IMG/VR virus record: IMGVR_UViG_3300033808_000111
Source: an uncultured virus (IMG/VR IMGVR_UViG_3300033808_000111)
Lineage: Duplodnaviria; Heunggongvirae; Uroviricota; Caudoviricetes
Length of the DNA stretch: 20,000 nt
Strand: one strand, 5' to 3'
The notes beneath the pieces are model-generated. The model searched no databases and was not told the origin of the DNA. It was given only the letters and a program-made list of their open reading frames with translations. Shown in pieces: positions 1,772-19,773 of the stretch (its first letter is position 1; every line of letters begins with the position of its first letter). The translations under genes were made by a program, and so were the position numbers.

Positions 1772-1951
1772 GTGAGAACCACGGCGAAGCAGCGGGAGGA
1801 TCTCCTCACGTGGTGGTGCGGCGTGCCCGTGGACCGCTACGAGCTGGTCCTCGAAGACTTCAACGCGCTCCTCGACGAGCGCGACCAGCTGGTCGAGGAG
1901 AACAAGCGCCTCCGCGAAGAGATCGAGCGCCTAGCCAAGCACATCCCCTGA
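1772..1951 (+). CDS. Small coiled-coil protein (59 aa)
   Basis: GTG-RTTAKQREDLLTWWCGVPVDRYELVLEDFNALLDERDQLVEENKRLREEIERLAKHIP*. Heptad pattern; the stop shares a base with the next ATG (TGATG). Below the ORF-track cutoff. Confidence 0.65.
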   Translation: MRTTAKQREDLLTWWCGVPVDRYELVLEDFNALLDERDQLVEENKRLREEIERLAKHIP

Positions 1952-2319
1952 TGAAGTACGACCGCACTGAGCCCTGCAAGTCTTGCCCGTACCGGCGCGA
2001 CGCTCCCCGCAAGCTCTGGGCTCCGGCCGAGTTCATCAACCTCTTGCGGCAGGAAGCCGACCCGATCTACGGCTCGACGTTCGGATGCCACGAGGGCCGC
2101 AAGCTCCCGAGCGACCACGCCGACCAGCGCATGTGCGTCGGTTGGCTCGTGCACCAGAAACGGAGGAACACTCCGTCCATCATGCTGAGGATGCGGCTCA
2201 TGAAGGACGCCGATCTCGACGCGCTCTACGCGCGCATCGACGAGCGCCAGAAGGGGCTCTTTCGCACGATCGAATCGATGTGCCGCGCGAACGGCGTCGA
2301 TCCTCGTCGACTCGAGTGA
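1951..2319 (+). CDS. DUF6283-like Cys/His metal-binding protein
   Basis: MKYDRTEPCKSCPYRRDAP..LW...EF..L...FGCHE...MCVGWL matches my recollection of the PCxxCPxRxD / FxCH / CxGW phage family. Confidence 0.65.
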   Translation: MKYDRTEPCKSCPYRRDAPRKLWAPAEFINLLRQEADPIYGSTFGCHEGRKLPSDHADQRMCVGWLVHQKRRNTPSIMLRMRLMKDADLDALYARIDERQKGLFRTIESMCRANGVDPRRLE

Positions 2320-12875: not shown

Positions 12876-13132
12876 TCGAGCTTCCAGCTCGATCTCGGAT
12901 TCATCTTCGGGTTGGCGGCTCCTCCGACCTGGCGGGCCTGGAAGCTTCTTCAGGTCGCGTGGGCCGGAGGTTTTCGGGCCGCAAACCAAAGACTATGCGG
13001 CGAGAGCCGCATTGTCGACTCTGACCGAGGAGGCTCCGAAGGAGCCGGACTCGAGATGCCGGCAAGAACAGCTTGAGTCAATCGTCTGGGCGTCCCGTCG
13101 TGACCTTCGGCACGACGTGGGCTCGGTCCACG
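12876..13132 (+). ncRNA. Second candidate structured non-coding element (RNA or ssDNA), opposite to the flanking genes
   Basis: Nested long stem 12911-12987, ATGCGGC-GAGA-GCCGCAT, GGCTCC-GAA-GGAGCC and CGTCGTG..C-TTCG-G..CACGACG. The G-U pairs work only on the + strand. Confidence 0.5.
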
Positions 13133-13141
13133 AGGTGGCCT

Positions 13142-13405
13142 TCAGCCGCTTTGGGGCGACCGCTTCCGCAAGCCGGAGTTTTTGACGACGTGCGTGAGCG
13201 CGTCGGCGGCCGCGTCGAGCCCGGCGTTGAAGCCACGCCTGTAGGACTCCTTGAGGCGTGGCTCCAGCTCGCACTGCTTGCAGGTAATGCAGTCGCGGAA
13301 ATCCGAGTACTCGGCGCGCTCGCGGACGTCTTCCAGCTCCACATAGAAGCCGCAGCCGTGGCAGTGGACCATGACTTTGGAGGTCTCGGTGGGGTTCATC
13401 GTCAT
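13142..13405 (-). CDS. Small zinc-finger protein
   Basis: CHGC ... CITCKQC followed by ESYRRGFNAGLDAA; ATG 13405 overlaps the upstream stop. Confidence 0.7.
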   Translation of the reverse strand: MTMNPTETSKVMVHCHGCGFYVELEDVRERAEYSDFRDCITCKQCELEPRLKESYRRGFNAGLDAAADALTHVVKNSGLRKRSPQSG

Positions 13406-13599
13406 GCTTTTTTCGCTTCCCACCGCTCGGGTTGTCCGGGTAGCCGCGGTTCGACGATCGTGGAACCAGCGAGCCTCGGGATGACTCGCGTCGCCGCCGT
13501 CAGCCGATCCAGCTCGGCTTGGAGGGCCAGCGCGTGGCCGACGACCTCGGCCTTCGTCATGCTCGAGAGTTTAGAGCGCGTGTATCTGATCATGGTCAT
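13402..13599 (-). CDS. Hypothetical protein
   Basis: MTMIRYTRSKLSSMTKAEVVGHALALQAELDRL; purine-rich upstream region and coupled stop. Confidence 0.6.
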   Translation of the reverse strand: MTMIRYTRSKLSSMTKAEVVGHALALQAELDRLTAATRVIPRLAGSTIVEPRLPGQPERWEAKKA

Positions 13600-13610
13600 G
13601 GTTCTCTTCT

Positions 13611-13973
13611 TCACTCCTTCGGGAAGCCTCGGTGCTCGGTGATGACGTCGTAGGCCCACTGCACCATCGCGGCCTTTGCGCTGCACGCGTGACCGTCATT
13701 CAAACTCTTGACGGTCTTGTCTACAATCGGACAGGGCGGCAAGGCCCTTGCGATGGCGACGATGTCCTTTGGAAGCTCGCTCGGGTCCGCGCAGTGCCAG
13801 AGCCCGTTCTTCGCACAGCGCAGGCAGCAGCTCGGGTAGATGCGGTCGGGCAGCGTCTTTTGCCATGGCGCTTTCCATTGCACGATGATCGGCGCTTGCG
13901 CCGTAGGCTCTGCGCAATAGAGGCACTCGTAGTTCTTCTCGCCAGTAAGGTGCGCTTCGGGACATTCGCTCAT
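13611..13973 (-). CDS. Cys-rich hypothetical protein
   Basis: MSECPEAH...CLYC...CCLRC; ATGA overlap with the upstream ORF. Confidence 0.65.
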   Translation of the reverse strand: MSECPEAHLTGEKNYECLYCAEPTAQAPIIVQWKAPWQKTLPDRIYPSCCLRCAKNGLWHCADPSELPKDIVAIARALPPCPIVDKTVKSLNDGHACSAKAAMVQWAYDVITEHRGFPKE

Positions 13974-17219: not shown

Positions 17220-18014
17220 GTGAACTCAGCAGCAAGAGAGTACCATGACCCTGTGGTGCGCGGCTTCGAAGACCCAGAACGAATCAAGATGGAGCTGAGC
17301 GCCGAGCTAGGCCTCTACCCAAGCGACTTGCTGGATTTTGAGTGCGACGACAAGAACATCGCGGCGGTCCCGGTGTGCAGCGCGACGACGCGCGCGGGAC
17401 GCTTCGCGATCGTGAGGGACCGCAAAGCCGCCGAGCGGCTCGCGGACGCGACCTTGAAGTTCCGCTTCAACGTGTACTTCAACGACGTGCGCCGAAAGAC
17501 CGCGGCGCCGCATGAGACGCGCGAGTGGCTGCCGCTCTACCCCCTGCTCCTCCACCTCTACGGCGGTGAGATGCGGGAGGTGCTCGCTTTGCGGGAGCGC
17601 CCGAACATCGATCGCGAGTACTCGCTCATCGCGAGGAGCTATCCGGACACGTTCTGGGAGGCGTGGAGAGATCAAGATATCGCGACGCTCCCGGCTGGGA
17701 CCATCGGAAAAGAGGTCATGGCGTGGGGGACCGCGCGTTCGCCAACGAAAGAAGAGTTCTCCCGGTTCGTTCACGCCGTCGCAAGGCAGAGGGCACAAGA
17801 CCCGCTCGAGTACCTCATGGAGCGCGGCGGTTACCGCGACAAGACGGACGCTTTCGAGCAGCTCCTCAAGCTCGCGCCGATCGATTCGCGGCGGGTGAGC
17901 AAGGAAGCCCTCAAGTGGTTCGGCTTCGAGCAGTTCTTGGCCGCTGATGGCAAGGCGTGGGAGACACCGAGCGGCTTCATCTACTTCAGCCCGATCTCTG
18001 CTTACCGCGCCTGA
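17220..18014 (+). CDS. Hypothetical protein
   Basis: Likely GTG start at 17220 after GGAGAAGAT; GC-ending codons from there on. The upstream part of the 16752 ORF is an antisense shadow. Confidence 0.75.
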   Translation: MNSAAREYHDPVVRGFEDPERIKMELSAELGLYPSDLLDFECDDKNIAAVPVCSATTRAGRFAIVRDRKAAERLADATLKFRFNVYFNDVRRKTAAPHETREWLPLYPLLLHLYGGEMREVLALRERPNIDREYSLIARSYPDTFWEAWRDQDIATLPAGTIGKEVMAWGTARSPTKEEFSRFVHAVARQRAQDPLEYLMERGGYRDKTDAFEQLLKLAPIDSRRVSKEALKWFGFEQFLAADGKAWETPSGFIYFSPISAYRA

Positions 18015-18345
18015 GAGAATCGAGAATGGTCGTGTGCTCGCAATGGAGCAGGCGCCCGAGACCCTTGGCGCTCATCCCGAGCCGCTCGCGGAGGAGCACG
18101 ACGAGCGCGTCGCGAGCGCGAACGACCGCGGGCACGCGGCCCGGCCCGAGCGCCGCGGTGAGAAAGACGCCGCGATCCTTGCAGAGCGTCTCGATCTCGG
18201 CGAGCACGCCGAGCTTGCCGAGCGCCACGATGATCGCGCGGACGTCGGCTTCGGTGCGATGACGCCGGTTTTTCTGTCGATTCAAACGATTTAGCGAACC
18301 TGGTATTGACAGGTTCTTCGGCTTGGGTAGGCTTCTTTCAGACAC
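17986..18345 (-). CDS. Stand-alone DnaA domain IV-like helix-turn-helix protein
   Basis: LGPGRVPAVVRARDALVVLLRERLGMSAKGLGRLLHCEHTTILDSLRR matches the R...aRq.amyl.r...S...iG..f.rDHTTvlh pattern. No AAA+ domain, so not dnaA itself. GTG 18345 has GAAGGAG 10 nt upstream. Confidence 0.8.
   Translation of the reverse strand: MSERSLPKPKNLSIPGSLNRLNRQKNRRHRTEADVRAIIVALGKLGVLAEIETLCKDRGVFLTAALGPGRVPAVVRARDALVVLLRERLGMSAKGLGRLLHCEHTTILDSLRRGKQRSG
18306..18333 (+). promoter_or_regulatory. Promoter TTGACA-N16-TAGGCT
   Basis: Consensus -35 at 18306-18311 and -10 at 18328-18333. Confidence 0.65.
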
Positions 18346-18402
18346 TGAAAAGAAACTCCTTCACGGGGCCCCGCCGAAGTAGCGCTCGGCGGGGCTTTTT
18401 TT
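18339..18402 (+). ncRNA. Candidate sRNA of about 64 nt with an anti-Shine-Dalgarno segment
   Basis: Bounded by a promoter and an intrinsic terminator, with no ORF between; contains ACTCCTTC (18355-18362). Confidence 0.55.
18368..18402 (+). terminator. Intrinsic terminator
   Basis: GCCCCGCCGA-agtagcgc-TCGGCGGGGC followed by T7. Confidence 0.9.
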
Positions 18403-18423
18403 GTTCGCTCACTCGAGCTGGGC

Positions 18424-18452
18424 TTGTCAACGTGCAAGTGCGGTCTTAGGCT
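18424..18452 (+). promoter_or_regulatory. Promoter TTGTCA-N17-TAGGCT for the PTH2/tRNA-like cluster
   Basis: Hexamers at 18424-18429 and 18447-18452; an ATG follows 8 nt later. Confidence 0.7.
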
Positions 18453-18460
18453 CTGGTTTC

Positions 18461-18490
18461 ATGCAAGCTCGAATGCAGCGGCTCGGCTAA
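18461..18490 (+). CDS. Putative leaderless minigene MQARMQRLG*
   Basis: ATG at the predicted transcription start; stop TAA at 18488-18490, just before the PTH2 coding region begins in the +1 frame. Confidence 0.4.
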   Translation: MQARMQRLG

Positions 18491-18815
18491 CCGCCGACAA
18501 GAGAATCCCGTCGCCCACTACATCATCGTCAGGGAGGACCTGCCGAGAGGGATTCAGGCGGCGATGTTGGTTCATGCCGCTGGAGAGAGCAGCCCTGGAA
18601 CGCTGAGCAAGGACACGTTCGCGTTTGTGCTCGGCGTGATCGACGAGAAAGCGCTCGTGGGCGAGGCCGCGCGCCTGCTCCAAGAACGCGTGATGTTCGT
18701 CCCCATCTTCGAGCCCGACGCTCCGTACTTCGGGCAGCTCATGGCGATCGGGATCATCCCCGCGAGGAAGGAGGTGCTCAAGCGTCACATGCGACGCCTG
18801 CCTCTCCTTAAATGA
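18489..18815 (+). CDS. PTH2-type peptidyl-tRNA hydrolase-like protein; no canonical start upstream of its conserved N-terminus
   Basis: The frame reads NRRQENPVAHYIIVREDLPRGIQAAMLVHAAGES...VLGV.DEKAL...IFEPD...GQLMAIGIIP...MRRLPLLK. This matches the PTH2 signature yiivR.DL..G..aAQ..HA ... t.igi.P ... l.Ll. The first ATG (18564) lies inside the conserved helix. Confidence 0.85.
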   Translation, partial: NRRQENPVAHYIIVREDLPRGIQAAMLVHAAGESSPGTLSKDTFAFVLGVIDEKALVGEAARLLQERVMFVPIFEPDAPYFGQLMAIGIIPARKEVLKRHMRRLPLLK

Positions 18816-18822
18816 TCATCAT

Positions 18823-18859
18823 GCGCCTCTTGTTCGGGAAACCGGGCGGGGGCGCGCCA
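18823..18859 (+). ncRNA. tRNA acceptor-like minihelix ending in G-CCA
   Basis: GCGCCTCTTGTTCGG-GAAA-CCGGGCGGGGGCGC-G-CCA: 14 bp with G-U pairs and one bulge, and a GNRA loop. It ends 1 nt before the next tRNA. Confidence 0.65.
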
Positions 18860-18860
18860 A

Positions 18861-18934
18861 GCCCGCGTAGCTCAGTGGCAGAGCACCCGAGTTTCTAACT
18901 TGGGAGGCCGGTCGTTCGAATCGATCTGCGGGCT
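18861..18934 (+). tRNA. Atypical tRNA-Arg(TCT)-like gene with a 6-bp anticodon stem
   Basis: GCCCGCG/TGCGGGC acceptor, GCTC/GAGC D arm, CCCGAG-TTTCTAA-CTTGGG anticodon arm, GGTCG-TTCGAAT-CGATC T arm. Discriminator T; no encoded CCA. Confidence 0.75.
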
Positions 18935-18935
18935 C

Positions 18936-19018
18936 TGGGGAGTAGCTCAGTGGCAGAGCATCGTGTACTCCTTGCGGGTTCACGAGTGTCGGAAGTTCGA
19001 ATCTTCTCTCCCCAACCA
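18936..19018 (+). tRNA. Atypical tRNA-Gln(TTG)-like gene with an elongated anticodon arm
   Basis: TGGGGAG/CTCCCCA-A-CCA acceptor (U1-A72), normal D and T arms. The TCGTG/CACGA stem encloses 15 nt (TACTCCTTGCGGGTT) with TTG at the centre. Confidence 0.7.
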
Positions 19019-19019
19019 A

Positions 19020-19095
19020 GCGCCCTTAGCTCAGTCAAGCAGAGCAACTGGAGTGCATAACCAGTAGGTCGCGGGCGCAAATCCCGCAGGGCGCG
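19020..19095 (+). tRNA. Atypical tRNA-like gene with a 9-nt anticodon loop (CAT or GCA; identity ambiguous)
   Basis: GCGCCCT/AGGGCGC-G acceptor, GCTC/GAGC, ACTGG-AGTGCATAA-CCAGT, GCGGG-CGCAAAT-CCCGC. The D loop lacks GG and the T loop lacks TTC. Confidence 0.65.
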
Positions 19096-19773
19096 CTAGG
19101 TTCCGCGAAAGCTTTTTTGTCGTTTCTTTTTTGTCATGTGAGGTGCGCGAGCACCCTGACGTGTGCGGCGAGCGACGCGGCGATCCGAAGTCGAAGTGAT
19201 CTGGACGTTGCCAGCGATGCCTCCAAGGTTCTTGAGCTGCGCGTTCGGCGCGAGCGCGAGCATGGTCGGCTTTACGCGCTTTTCGGTTGTTCGTGAGGCG
19301 AGCGGCAAACCGCGCTCGCGCGCGAACTCTTTGGTGGACGCCATGATGGTGACGGGCCGGTGCGTGCCGTCAAGCACGCCGTCTTCTTCACAGATGGTTG
19401 CTTGCGCGAGGCTGTCGTCGATCACGATGTCGATGCCGCTCGTCGTGCGAACGTCTTCGTTGATGGTCTGGACCAGCTCTGCCCAGGTGGAAAAGACGTT
19501 GTCGGCCGATTTCGTGGGCGGCGCACCCGGGCGGAAGATCACCGTCCATCCGGCGGACACGAACCCCTCTCCGGTTTTGCGTGACCACTCGAGCATCCGT
19601 CCGCGTCTCGTGACCATGAAGAGTCGCACCTCGCGGCCACCGGCCCGAGCTTGCCGGTAAAAGTCCACGGCGGCTTTCTCGTCGCTCTCGACAAGCACCT
19701 CGCGATCGCCCTCGATGATCACGAACTCGCCGGTGGCATGGCGCGCTTCCACTGCCACCAGCATACCATCCAT
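19096..19773 (-). CDS. Hypothetical protein
   Basis: Long ORF with GC-ending codons, convergent on the tRNA cluster. Start uncertain (ATG 19773, ATG 19764 or GTG 19752). Confidence 0.7.
   Translation of the reverse strand: MDGMLVAVEARHATGEFVIIEGDREVLVESDEKAAVDFYRQARAGGREVRLFMVTRRGRMLEWSRKTGEGFVSAGWTVIFRPGAPPTKSADNVFSTWAELVQTINEDVRTTSGIDIVIDDSLAQATICEEDGVLDGTHRPVTIMASTKEFARERGLPLASRTTEKRVKPTMLALAPNAQLKNLGGIAGNVQITSTSDRRVARRTRQGARAPHMTKKKRQKSFRGT

What the first reader, a model, noticed from the sequence alone, without database searches (positions are those of the whole stretch)
18823..18859. Genomically encoded tRNA minihelix with a GNRA loop and 3' G-CCA
Seen: a 37-nt hairpin with the end geometry of a tRNA acceptor arm (paired 5' G, unpaired discriminator G, CCA) and no D or anticodon arm. 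Its first five pairs (GCGCC/GGCGC) and discriminator match the third tRNA-like gene. It has no U tract, so it is not a terminator. Established: minihelices are substrates for RNase P, the CCA-adding enzyme and several synthetases in vitro. Inference: a natural stand-alone minihelix that tRNA finders would miss.
Basis: partly seen in the sequence, partly recalled or inferred. Interest (0 to 1): 0.75.

Follow-up and report, generated by a model that had tools for sequence, protein, structure and literature searches.

The report
Hairpin tRNA mimic in phage tRNA array
A 37-base hairpin ending in CCA sits directly in front of three tRNA-like genes of a large phage, and it looks like the most stripped-down member of a recurring set of tRNA mimics that have lost their anticodon.

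Summary
Window 18823-18859 is a 14-pair hairpin with one bulge, a GAAA loop and an unpaired G-CCA tail, 1 nt before tRNA-Arg(UCU). It is the most stable closed 33-nt hairpin in the window on either strand. It forms only on the tRNA strand (-24.8 against -11.0 kcal/mol). It lies in one unit: PTH2-like ORF, hairpin, then three tRNA(-like) genes.

No sequence homologue was found, and one of the two closest relatives found lacks it. But in 165 unique loci carrying PTH2-like genes the ORF is usually followed by odd tRNA-like arrays. These include cloverleaves whose anticodon loop is a GNRA, UNCG or CUUG tetraloop, two-armed mini forms, and bare 12-14 bp hairpins. Short elements inside arrays carry N-CC tails in 17 of 24 cases, against 11 of 92 outside.

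The window hairpin fills the slot that in L125, L108 and L113 holds a cloverleaf with a tetraloop in place of the anticodon loop (GAAA in L125 and L113). It has the four features of the laboratory RNase P substrate pATSerUG-GAAA.

Best reading: a reduced tRNA-like unit cut out by RNase P. Its role is open: punctuation of the transcript, or a mimic of the acceptor end acting in trans. No RNA data could be found.

The parts
18365..18408 (+). terminator-like hairpin plus T run that closes the upstream unit, so the PTH2-like ORF, hairpin and tRNAs form their own unit
   Evidence: 13-pair stem followed by TTTTTTT; sequence
18450..18815 (+). PTH2-like ORF. The frame is open from 18450 and the conserved part starts at 18516. 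Stop TGA is at 18813-18815. There is no ATG/GTG/TTG at the conserved N-terminus.
   Evidence: frame; phrog_1866, 5.7e-6; 286 homologues, PF01981 precomputed for many; profile against solved Pth2 1rzw, E 0.0036; no Pfam hit for the window protein itself
18822..18822 (+). T at position -1 of the hairpin (U-1 in the RNA). It can wobble-pair with G18856.
   Evidence: U-1 is discussed as an RNase P determinant in PMC11143913 and PMC10465520 (passages)
18823..18855 (+). stem-loop: 14 pairs, one bulged U (18828), GAAA tetraloop (18838-18841)
18856..18859 (+). G (discriminator position) plus encoded CCA
   Evidence: The same CCAAGC junction recurs at 19016 between the second and third tRNA-like genes (repeat D5).
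18860..18860 (+). single-base spacer before tRNA-Arg
   Evidence: A 1-nt spacer after an encoded CCA is the commonest junction in related arrays: 16 of 29.
18861..18934 (+). tRNA-Arg(UCU), 7-nt anticodon loop, no encoded CCA
   Evidence: Rfam tRNA, 50.1 bits
18936..19018 (+). second tRNA-like gene. Its anticodon arm is extended and capped (15 nt between the 5-bp stem halves, containing CTTGC). ACCA is encoded.
   Evidence: (50.7 bits)
19020..19095 (+). third tRNA-like gene: 9-nt anticodon loop AGTGCATAA, T loop CGCAAAT, no CCA. It shares the first five acceptor pairs and G73 with the hairpin.
   Evidence: 47.5 bits; not called by ARAGORN
19108..19130 (+). T-rich stretch after the last tRNA-like gene, the probable end of the unit (inferred)
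   Evidence: sequence; not listed by the terminator scan

Best explanation
The hairpin is an RNA-level mimic of the tRNA acceptor arm. It is one unit of a small tRNA-like array transcribed together with a phage PTH2-like gene. It is the most reduced form of a series seen in related phages: cloverleaves whose anticodon loop has been replaced by a stable tetraloop, then two-armed minis, then bare 12-14 bp hairpins. All keep a closed terminal stem followed by N-CC(A).

Proposed mechanism (inferred, not shown). RNase P cuts at the 5' end of tRNA-Arg (between A18860 and G18861), which leaves ...GCCA-A. It also cuts at the 5' end of the hairpin (between U18822 and G18823, or one base upstream), using the stem length, U-1 and the G-CCA tail as it does on laboratory hairpin substrates. 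One base is then trimmed, which releases a 37-nt CCA-ended RNA and frees the mRNA from the tRNAs.

The most likely role is punctuation, meaning orderly processing of the mRNA-tRNA transcript. A role in trans for the released RNA is possible but has no support yet.
For: Shown:
- The hairpin is strand-specific and exceptionally stable.
- Its 3' junction (N-CCA, 1 nt, tRNA) equals the tRNA-to-tRNA junction in the same array. It is also the modal junction in relatives: 16 of 29 upstream tRNAs with encoded CCA have a 1-nt spacer.
- Of 172 tRNAs not preceded by an ARAGORN tRNA, 21 have CCA plus exactly 1 nt in front (12.2%). The figure is 1.5% at 26,400 random positions.
- Short closed hairpin or two-arm elements inside arrays carry N-CC in 17 of 24 and N-CCA in 11 of 24 cases. 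Equally defined elements outside arrays carry them in 11 of 92 and 4 of 92 cases (Fisher 3e-8 and 3e-6). These fall into roughly 11 independent families with the tail and 6 without.
- Three lineages have a 12-14 bp hairpin plus N-CC(A) between the ORF stop and the first tRNA: the window, L134 and L041.
- The window hairpin aligns into the slot of an anticodon-less cloverleaf in L125, L108 and L113, with the C-A/G-CCA-A-GCCC junction in register. Those cloverleaves pass Rfam's tRNA threshold.
- Two-armed minis show compensatory changes: 6 of 18 pairs, none broken, in 4 sequences.

From papers (passages read):
- E. coli RNase P RNA cleaves hairpin substrates made of the acceptor and T stems.
- The 3' RCCA pairs with GGU in the P15 loop.
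- The 12-bp stack acts as a measuring device (PMC11143913).
- The model substrate pATSerUG-GAAA has U-1, G+73, a GAAA tetraloop and CCA, and it is cleaved (PMC10465520).

Circumstantial: a genome of the likely host phylum has a type A RNase P RNA with CGGGU at that place.
Against: - No RNA data: one DNA run only.
- No sequence homologue of this hairpin was found. L003, one of the two closest relatives, has none, so the element is dispensable or recently gained.
- The counts are not corrected for shared ancestry. They rest on my own segmentation, which mis-folds some tRNAs.
- GAAA-capped model hairpins are cleaved more slowly and less accurately than those with a T loop.
- The stem has 14 pairs plus a bulge, not 12.
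- U18822 can pair with G18856, which in model substrates shifts cleavage to -1.
- The host is unknown. The link to Myxococcota comes from metagenome bins.
Confidence: 0.5

Rival explanations
1. It acts in cis only. After RNase P cuts at the 5' end of tRNA-Arg, the hairpin stays on the PTH2-like mRNA as a 3' stem-loop that protects it from 3' exonucleases. It is never released.
For: - It begins 8 nt after the stop codon and ends 1 nt before the tRNA.
- It is very stable, with a GNRA loop.
- L134 and L041 have hairpins at the same place.
- The short 5-nt tail would be a poor landing site for exonucleases (general knowledge, not tested).
Against: - Equivalent hairpins in L001, L083, L016 and L092 lie between two tRNA-like genes, not behind the ORF.
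- The N-CC(A) tail is enriched on such elements, and a stabiliser does not need it.
- In most relatives the first tRNA follows the stop codon within a few bases with no hairpin.
- In about 10 of 133 relatives the ORF has no stop codon before the first tRNA-like element.
Confidence: 0.28
2. It is a decayed tRNA gene, or an insertion that happens to fold, with no function of its own.
For: - It is absent from L003, one of the two closest relatives.
- No homologue was found.
- Its acceptor pairs equal those of the third tRNA, so it could derive from a copy of that gene.
Against: - An internal deletion of a tRNA would not leave 14 contiguous pairs.
- All four U.G wobbles are oriented so that only the tRNA strand folds.
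- It is the top-ranked hairpin of the window.
- Related reduced elements keep their pairs through compensatory change.
Confidence: 0.12
3. It is a transcription terminator or attenuator between the ORF and the tRNAs.
For: It is a G+C-rich hairpin directly after a stop codon.
Against: - No U tract follows: the next bases are GCCAAGCCCG.
- The terminator scan does not list it.
- Three tRNA-like genes follow on the same strand with no promoter-like site between.
Confidence: 0.03

Closest known systems
Laboratory RNase P model hairpin substrate pATSerUG-GAAA (PMC10465520, passages read; McClain/Altman hairpin substrates as described in PMC11143913)
   Same: A single hairpin about as long as the acceptor stem plus T stem, capped by a GAAA tetraloop, with U at -1, G at +73 and a 3' CCA.
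   Different: That is a synthetic 12-bp construct derived from E. coli tRNA-Ser. This one is encoded in a phage genome, has 14 pairs and a bulge, and its cleavage is untested.
tRNA minihelix (acceptor stem plus T stem-loop) of the aminoacylation and origin-of-tRNA literature (review PMC4033280, passages read)
   Same: G1-C72 start, coaxial helix of similar length, unpaired N73-CCA end. According to the review this 'top half' is what RNase P, the CCA-adding enzyme and many synthetases recognise.
   Different: There is no 7-nt T loop, the helix is 14 pairs rather than 12, and there is no evidence of charging. That review treats minihelices as experimental or hypothetical ancestral molecules, not as present-day genes.
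Natural hairpin-type RNase P substrates, such as the precursor of E. coli 4.5S RNA (PMC11143913) and the C4 antisense RNA of phages P1/P7 (recalled, no call)
   Same: They are non-tRNA hairpins processed at the 5' side by RNase P.
   Different: Those RNAs have known functions and are not units of a tRNA array.
Polycistrons of irregular tRNAs from forest and peat soil metatranscriptomes (Mukai et al., PMC5389517, passages read)
   Same: Tandem non-canonical tRNA-like genes from soil or peat. Some are charged in vitro but not used in translation.
   Different: Those are allo-tRNA-like (8/4 acceptor branch), assigned to Acidobacteria and linked to toxin-antitoxin genes. No PTH2-like gene, tetraloop-capped anticodon arm or bare hairpin is described in the passages I read.
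Armless mitochondrial tRNAs (review PMC4033280)
   Same: Extreme reduction of the cloverleaf with the acceptor end retained.
   Different: Those keep the anticodon arm and decode. Here the anticodon is what is lost.

Membership tests
tRNA (Rfam RF00005) | cloverleaf with D, anticodon and T arms scoring above the family threshold | tested here: not met
   No match to 18823-18859 even at E up to 10. ARAGORN is silent. The fold is a single hairpin.
tRNA minihelix (strict sense) | 12-bp acceptor/T helix | tested here: inconclusive
   14 pairs plus one bulged U. Sister hairpins have 12 (L134) and 13 (L041) pairs.
tRNA minihelix (strict sense) | 7-nt T loop (T-psi-C) | tested here: not met
   The loop is the tetraloop GAAA.
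tRNA minihelix (strict sense) | unpaired N73 followed by CCA | tested here: met
   G18856 and CCA 18857-18859, although U18822 could pair with G18856.
RNase P hairpin substrates (pATSer-GAAA type) | hairpin with 3' RCCA, N-1 leader base, tetraloop cap | tested here: met
   U-1, G+73, CCA and GAAA all present. Compared with the description in PMC10465520.
RNase P hairpin substrates (pATSer-GAAA type) | is cleaved by RNase P at +1 | not testable with these tools
   This needs an enzyme assay or RNA end mapping. No RNA run was listed.
Intrinsic (Rho-independent) terminator | G+C-rich stem followed by a U tract | tested here: not met
   The tail is GCCAAGCCCG. It is not in the terminator scan.
Unit of the PTH2-linked tRNA-like array | lies on the array strand between the ORF and the last tRNA-like gene, closed terminal stem, N-CC(A) tail, short spacer to the next unit | tested here: met
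PTH2 peptidyl-tRNA hydrolase (PF01981), for the neighbouring ORF | significant match to the family profile | tested here: inconclusive
   No Pfam hit for the window protein. Many homologues carry a precomputed PF01981. A profile of 48 homologues hits solved Pth2 chains only at E 0.0036-0.0098.

The most novel reading that the evidence does not exclude
The 37-nt RNA is released and acts in trans as a bare acceptor-arm mimic. It would be the minimal member of a phage toolkit of non-decoding tRNA mimics (anticodon-less cloverleaves, two-armed minis, minihelices) encoded beside a PTH2-like hydrolase. It could soak up host enzymes or defence toxins that act on the tRNA 3' CCA end or acceptor stem. 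Or it could itself be charged and then handled by the PTH2-like enzyme. In either case it would be the first natural stand-alone minihelix gene.
Probability: 0.2. Interest if true: 0.85.

Novelty: new variant of a known kind. Interest (0 to 1): 0.66.

Why it matters
Hairpins with a CCA end have been laboratory tools for RNase P, the CCA-adding enzyme and synthetases, and a thought experiment for the origin of tRNA. A review states that bacterial tRNA genes lack structural diversity (PMC4033280). Here a phage encodes such a hairpin inside a tRNA array. Relatives show a graded series from cloverleaf to hairpin in which the anticodon is lost and the acceptor end is kept.

That points to a use of tRNA shape that is not decoding. 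It would be either RNase P-based punctuation of an mRNA-tRNA transcript or mimicry of the tRNA acceptor end, in phages that also carry a PTH2-like enzyme.

My five literature searches found no description of these arrays or of a natural minihelix gene. The library lacks most subscription journals, so this is not proof of absence.

The question is directly testable with one transcript and RNase P.

Tried and rejected
- Whole genome: none is held for the window.
- Phage GenBank records, distant blastn of 17900-19300: only tRNA-level hits to one Gordonia phage deposited under two accessions.
- RNA evidence: no RNA holder listed. One DNA run (peat metagenome) is the probable source.
- Homologue of the hairpin by pattern (5' arm start, GAAA, 3' arm end plus CCA) in viral contigs: 54 hits, 0 of 54 next to a tRNA, none related.
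- Earlier notes of this scan: nothing by place, words or sequence.
- L046 1797-1833, a 37-nt hairpin plus GCCA found, was dropped. It overlaps the stop codon and the next element and is absent from the sister locus L025.
- The lax scan (7-pair closure plus N-CCA) gives about 14 hits in the window's + strand, so that criterion alone is not informative. I replaced it with the controls.
- Chromosomal PTH2-like genes of Archangium and Nannocystaceae have no arrays and say nothing about the hairpin.
- The first segmentation script timed out. Two runs failed on an interpreter import. completed. Its folds mis-assign some tRNAs as 'hairpin' or 'Y-deep', so its counts are approximate.
- I considered an integration-site tRNA fragment (abstract of bioRxiv 10.1101/2022.07.05.498093 read) and rejected it. 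The protein scans showed no integrase. The repeat scan found no tRNA 3'-half repeat, only the CCAAGC-plus-tRNA-start junction D5. A full stem is present.

Full report
WHAT IS THERE

Window 18823-18859 reads GCGCCTCTTGTTCGGGAAACCGGGCGGGGGCGCGCCA. As RNA it folds into 14 pairs with one bulged U, a GAAA loop and an unpaired G-CCA tail. The MFE is -24.8 kcal/mol, z = -3.5, and 0 of 200 shuffles fold as well.

The hairpin starts 8 nt after the TGA (18813-18815) of an ORF. It ends one base (A18860) before tRNA-Arg(UCU), 18861-18934. Two more tRNA-like genes follow.
- 18936-19018 has 15 nt between the halves of its anticodon stem and an encoded ACCA.
- 19020-19095 has a 9-nt anticodon loop and an odd T loop. 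It passes Rfam's tRNA threshold (47.5 bits) but is not called by ARAGORN.

A terminator-like hairpin with a T run lies upstream at 18365-18398, and a T-rich stretch follows the last tRNA. So the ORF, the hairpin and the three tRNA-like genes look like one unit. That is an inference: no promoter-like site was found.

IS IT MORE THAN CHANCE?

- Of all closed 33-nt windows on both strands of the 20 kb, only 7 reach -20 kcal/mol. This one is the most stable and the only one followed by N-CCA.
- Four of its pairs are U.G with the U in the 5' arm. The opposite strand therefore folds to only -11.0 kcal/mol. The structure is specific to the strand that carries the tRNAs. That argues for an RNA element rather than a DNA palindrome.
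- In a fold of 18760-19100 it remains an independent domain beside three cloverleaves.
- The junction CCAAGC plus tRNA start occurs twice: hairpin to tRNA-Arg, and second to third tRNA-like gene (repeat D5).
- It is not a terminator, because no U tract follows.

THE NEIGHBOURHOOD

The ORF is a distant relative of PTH2 peptidyl-tRNA hydrolases.
- It matches phrog_1866 at 5.7e-6.
- It has 286 homologues, many with a precomputed PF01981.
- A profile of 48 of them reaches solved Pth2 structures only at E 0.004-0.01.
- The window protein itself has no Pfam hit.

PTH2 in jumbo phages has been noted before, in Iyer et al., PMC7824862 (passages read). The passages returned by my term search there do not mention neighbouring RNAs. 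The window's contig is 121.7 kb. Relatives lie on viral contigs of up to 619 kb. Genome-collection hits are mostly metagenome bins of Myxococcota, which is a hint at the host and no more.

RELATIVES

I collected 200 loci with PTH2-like genes, of which 165 are unique by their downstream sequence.

No sequence homologue of the hairpin turned up. A pattern built from its ends and loop hit 54 viral contigs. None of the 54 is next to a tRNA and none is related. The two closest relatives found, both at 69% protein identity, differ from the window.
- L003 has tRNA-Arg 5 nt after the stop codon and no hairpin.
- L001 has a different, 55-nt hairpin that also ends G-CCA, 1 nt before a tRNA. It lies between the second-type and third-type tRNA-like genes.

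So this sequence is not conserved, but the kind of element recurs.

THE RECURRING PATTERN

In most loci the ORF is followed at once by an array of odd tRNA-like genes. In my segmentation of the 165 loci, 106 have arrays, with 216 cloverleaves. The middle arm of these ends in a GNRA tetraloop in 29, UNCG in 10 and CUUG in 29 (plus 5 CTTGC). A further 22 have 9-nt loops. Examples of these anticodon-less cloverleaves pass Rfam's tRNA threshold: L125 52.3 bits, L004 56.8, L113 47.2, L108 53.1, L012 48.9, L096 42.3, L107 39.9.

Further reduced forms occur.
- Two-armed minis consist of a 7-bp acceptor stem, one hairpin (GNRA-capped in most) and a T-like arm, 41-53 nt in all. In one family of four, 6 of 18 pairs show compensatory change and none is broken. 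A second family of three shows 2 of 15.
- Bare hairpins also occur.
- Three lineages have a 12-14 bp hairpin between the ORF stop and the first tRNA: the window (14 bp, GCCA plus A), L134 (12 bp, GCCA plus C) and L041 (13 bp, ACCU plus G).

COUNTS AND THEIR LIMITS

- Among 65 tRNA-to-tRNA junctions, 29 upstream tRNAs encode CCA, and 16 of these are followed by exactly 1 nt.
- Among 172 tRNAs with no ARAGORN tRNA in front, 21 (12.2%) have CCA plus exactly 1 nt. The figure is 1.5% at 26,400 random positions. Many of the 21 are tRNA-likes that ARAGORN missed. Five are shorter than 60 nt.
- Short (62 nt or less) closed hairpin or two-arm elements inside arrays carry N-CC in 17 of 24 and N-CCA in 11 of 24 cases. 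For the same kind of element downstream of the arrays the figures are 11 of 92 and 4 of 92 (Fisher 3e-8 and 3e-6).

These numbers are not corrected for shared ancestry. I count about 11 independent families with the tail and 6 without. They also rest on MFE folds that mis-assign some tRNAs.

POSITIONAL HOMOLOGY

L125 (58% identity) has this order: ORF, a cloverleaf whose anticodon arm is CCGG-GAAA-CCGG and which ends ACCA, one A, a tRNA-Arg-like gene starting GCCC, then the extended-arm tRNA-like gene. This is the same order as in the window, with the cloverleaf where the window has the hairpin. MAFFT places the hairpin in that slot in L125, L108 and L113, with the CCA-A-GCCC junction in register. 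I read the hairpin as the end point of the reduction series. Whether it descends from that cloverleaf or from a copy of the third tRNA, whose first five acceptor pairs it shares, is unresolved.

HOW IT MOST LIKELY WORKS

This is inferred. According to the passages I read:
- E. coli RNase P RNA cleaves hairpins made of the acceptor and T stems.
- The 3' RCCA pairs with GGU in the P15 loop.
- The 12-bp stack serves as a ruler.
- U-1 matters (PMC11143913).

The widely used model substrate pATSerUG-GAAA has U at -1, G at +73, a GAAA tetraloop and CCA. It is cleaved, more slowly and with more cutting at -1 than the T-loop version (PMC10465520). The window hairpin has all four features.

RNase P cutting at the tRNA-Arg 5' end would leave GCCA-A. 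Cutting at the hairpin's 5' end would free a 38-mer, which is trimmed to 37. A genome of the candidate host phylum has a type A RNase P RNA (225 bits) with CGGGU at the P15-loop position. That is circumstantial.

What the released RNA would do is open. I put most weight on punctuation of the mRNA-tRNA transcript and less on a role in trans.

RIVALS

- The hairpin may never be cut off and may simply protect the mRNA 3' end. Against this, sister hairpins lie between tRNAs, and the N-CC(A) tail would be unnecessary.
- It may be a decaying tRNA or a chance insert. Against this stand the strand-specific wobbles and its top-ranked stability.
- It may be a terminator. It has no U tract.

WHAT COULD NOT BE DONE

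No RNA run holds the region, so expression, ends and charging are untested. Supplements of the papers were not opened. The figures of Mukai et al. (PMC5389517), which show their irregular tRNA polycistrons, are not held, so I cannot exclude overlap with the arrays described here beyond what the text says.

VERDICT

The hairpin is best filed as a new, extreme variant of tRNA-like genes. It is not a tRNA and not a strict minihelix.

Noticed in passing
window 18936-19018; relatives L003, L004, L006, L012, L017, L023, L027, L114, L125 and others: The second tRNA-like gene has a long extended anticodon arm capped by CUUG (motif GCTTGCG) instead of an anticodon loop. 29 CUUG-capped (plus 5 CTTGC) cloverleaves were seen among 216. 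It cannot decode in the usual way.
   Followed up: partly
window 19020-19095; relatives such as L001 3459-3534, L017, L013, L066: The third tRNA-like gene has a 9-nt anticodon loop (AGTGCATAA here; NGTAATGAN, ACTGTAGAA and others elsewhere; 22 of 216). If the outer bases are taken as an extra non-standard pair, the inner 7 nt often read as a normal loop with anticodon GUA, GUG, GCA or GAA. ARAGORN misses or mis-names many of them.
   Followed up: partly
related loci L123 (sister copies L008-L010), L013, L111, L131, L154, L156, L150, L222, L233 (scored); L022, L133 by eye: In about 10 of 133 unique loci with an aligned C-terminus, the PTH2-like ORF has no stop codon before the first tRNA-like element. 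The frame runs into the array; one of the 10, L126, is probably segmentation noise. In L008 it ends at the TAATGA of a 9-nt anticodon loop. If RNase P cuts there, the mRNA would lack a stop codon. This recalls regulation of ArfA by a non-stop message (recalled, no call).
   Followed up: partly
L096 704-1050 (-) and L094 1830-2174 (-): A tmRNA gene (Rfam 100.9 bits; tag ANDNAVPFIAEKIAA) lies about 100 nt beyond the tRNA-like array, on the opposite strand, in two related short contigs. Flanks elsewhere were only 1.2-1.5 kb, so more may exist.
   Followed up: no
window 18516-18566: The PTH2-like ORF has no ATG/GTG/TTG at its conserved N-terminus. ATC stands at 18522 where L001 has the GTG start of its 97-aa protein. 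The first canonical start (ATG 18564) would remove 16 conserved residues. Either a rare start codon is used or the protein is truncated.
   Followed up: partly
L025 1818-1904 and L046 1826-1910: Two adjacent elements are shared by both loci. The second is an 11-bp stem with three compensatory pair changes, an identical 19-nt loop and an ACCT tail. Eight bases of that loop are complementary to AGCGGAGG in the first element, which suggests a loop-loop contact or another fold.
   Followed up: no
related loci L004, L011, L012, L096, L107, L108, L113, L125, L147, L103, L156: The first cloverleaf after the ORF has a GNRA or UUCG tetraloop where the anticodon loop should be, and still scores 40-57 bits with Rfam's tRNA model. 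In other relatives the same position holds tRNA-Arg(UCU).
   Followed up: partly
window 13231-13263: A near-perfect palindromic hairpin folds equally well on both strands (-22.1 and -21.0 kcal/mol). It lies inside the long + strand ORF 13073-13642.
   Followed up: no
window 1810-2319 (+): This is the only other ORF of the window with a family match: DUF6283 (2.5e-20). 23 of the 25 ORFs scanned have no Pfam hit, and PHROGs adds only weak hits.
   Followed up: no
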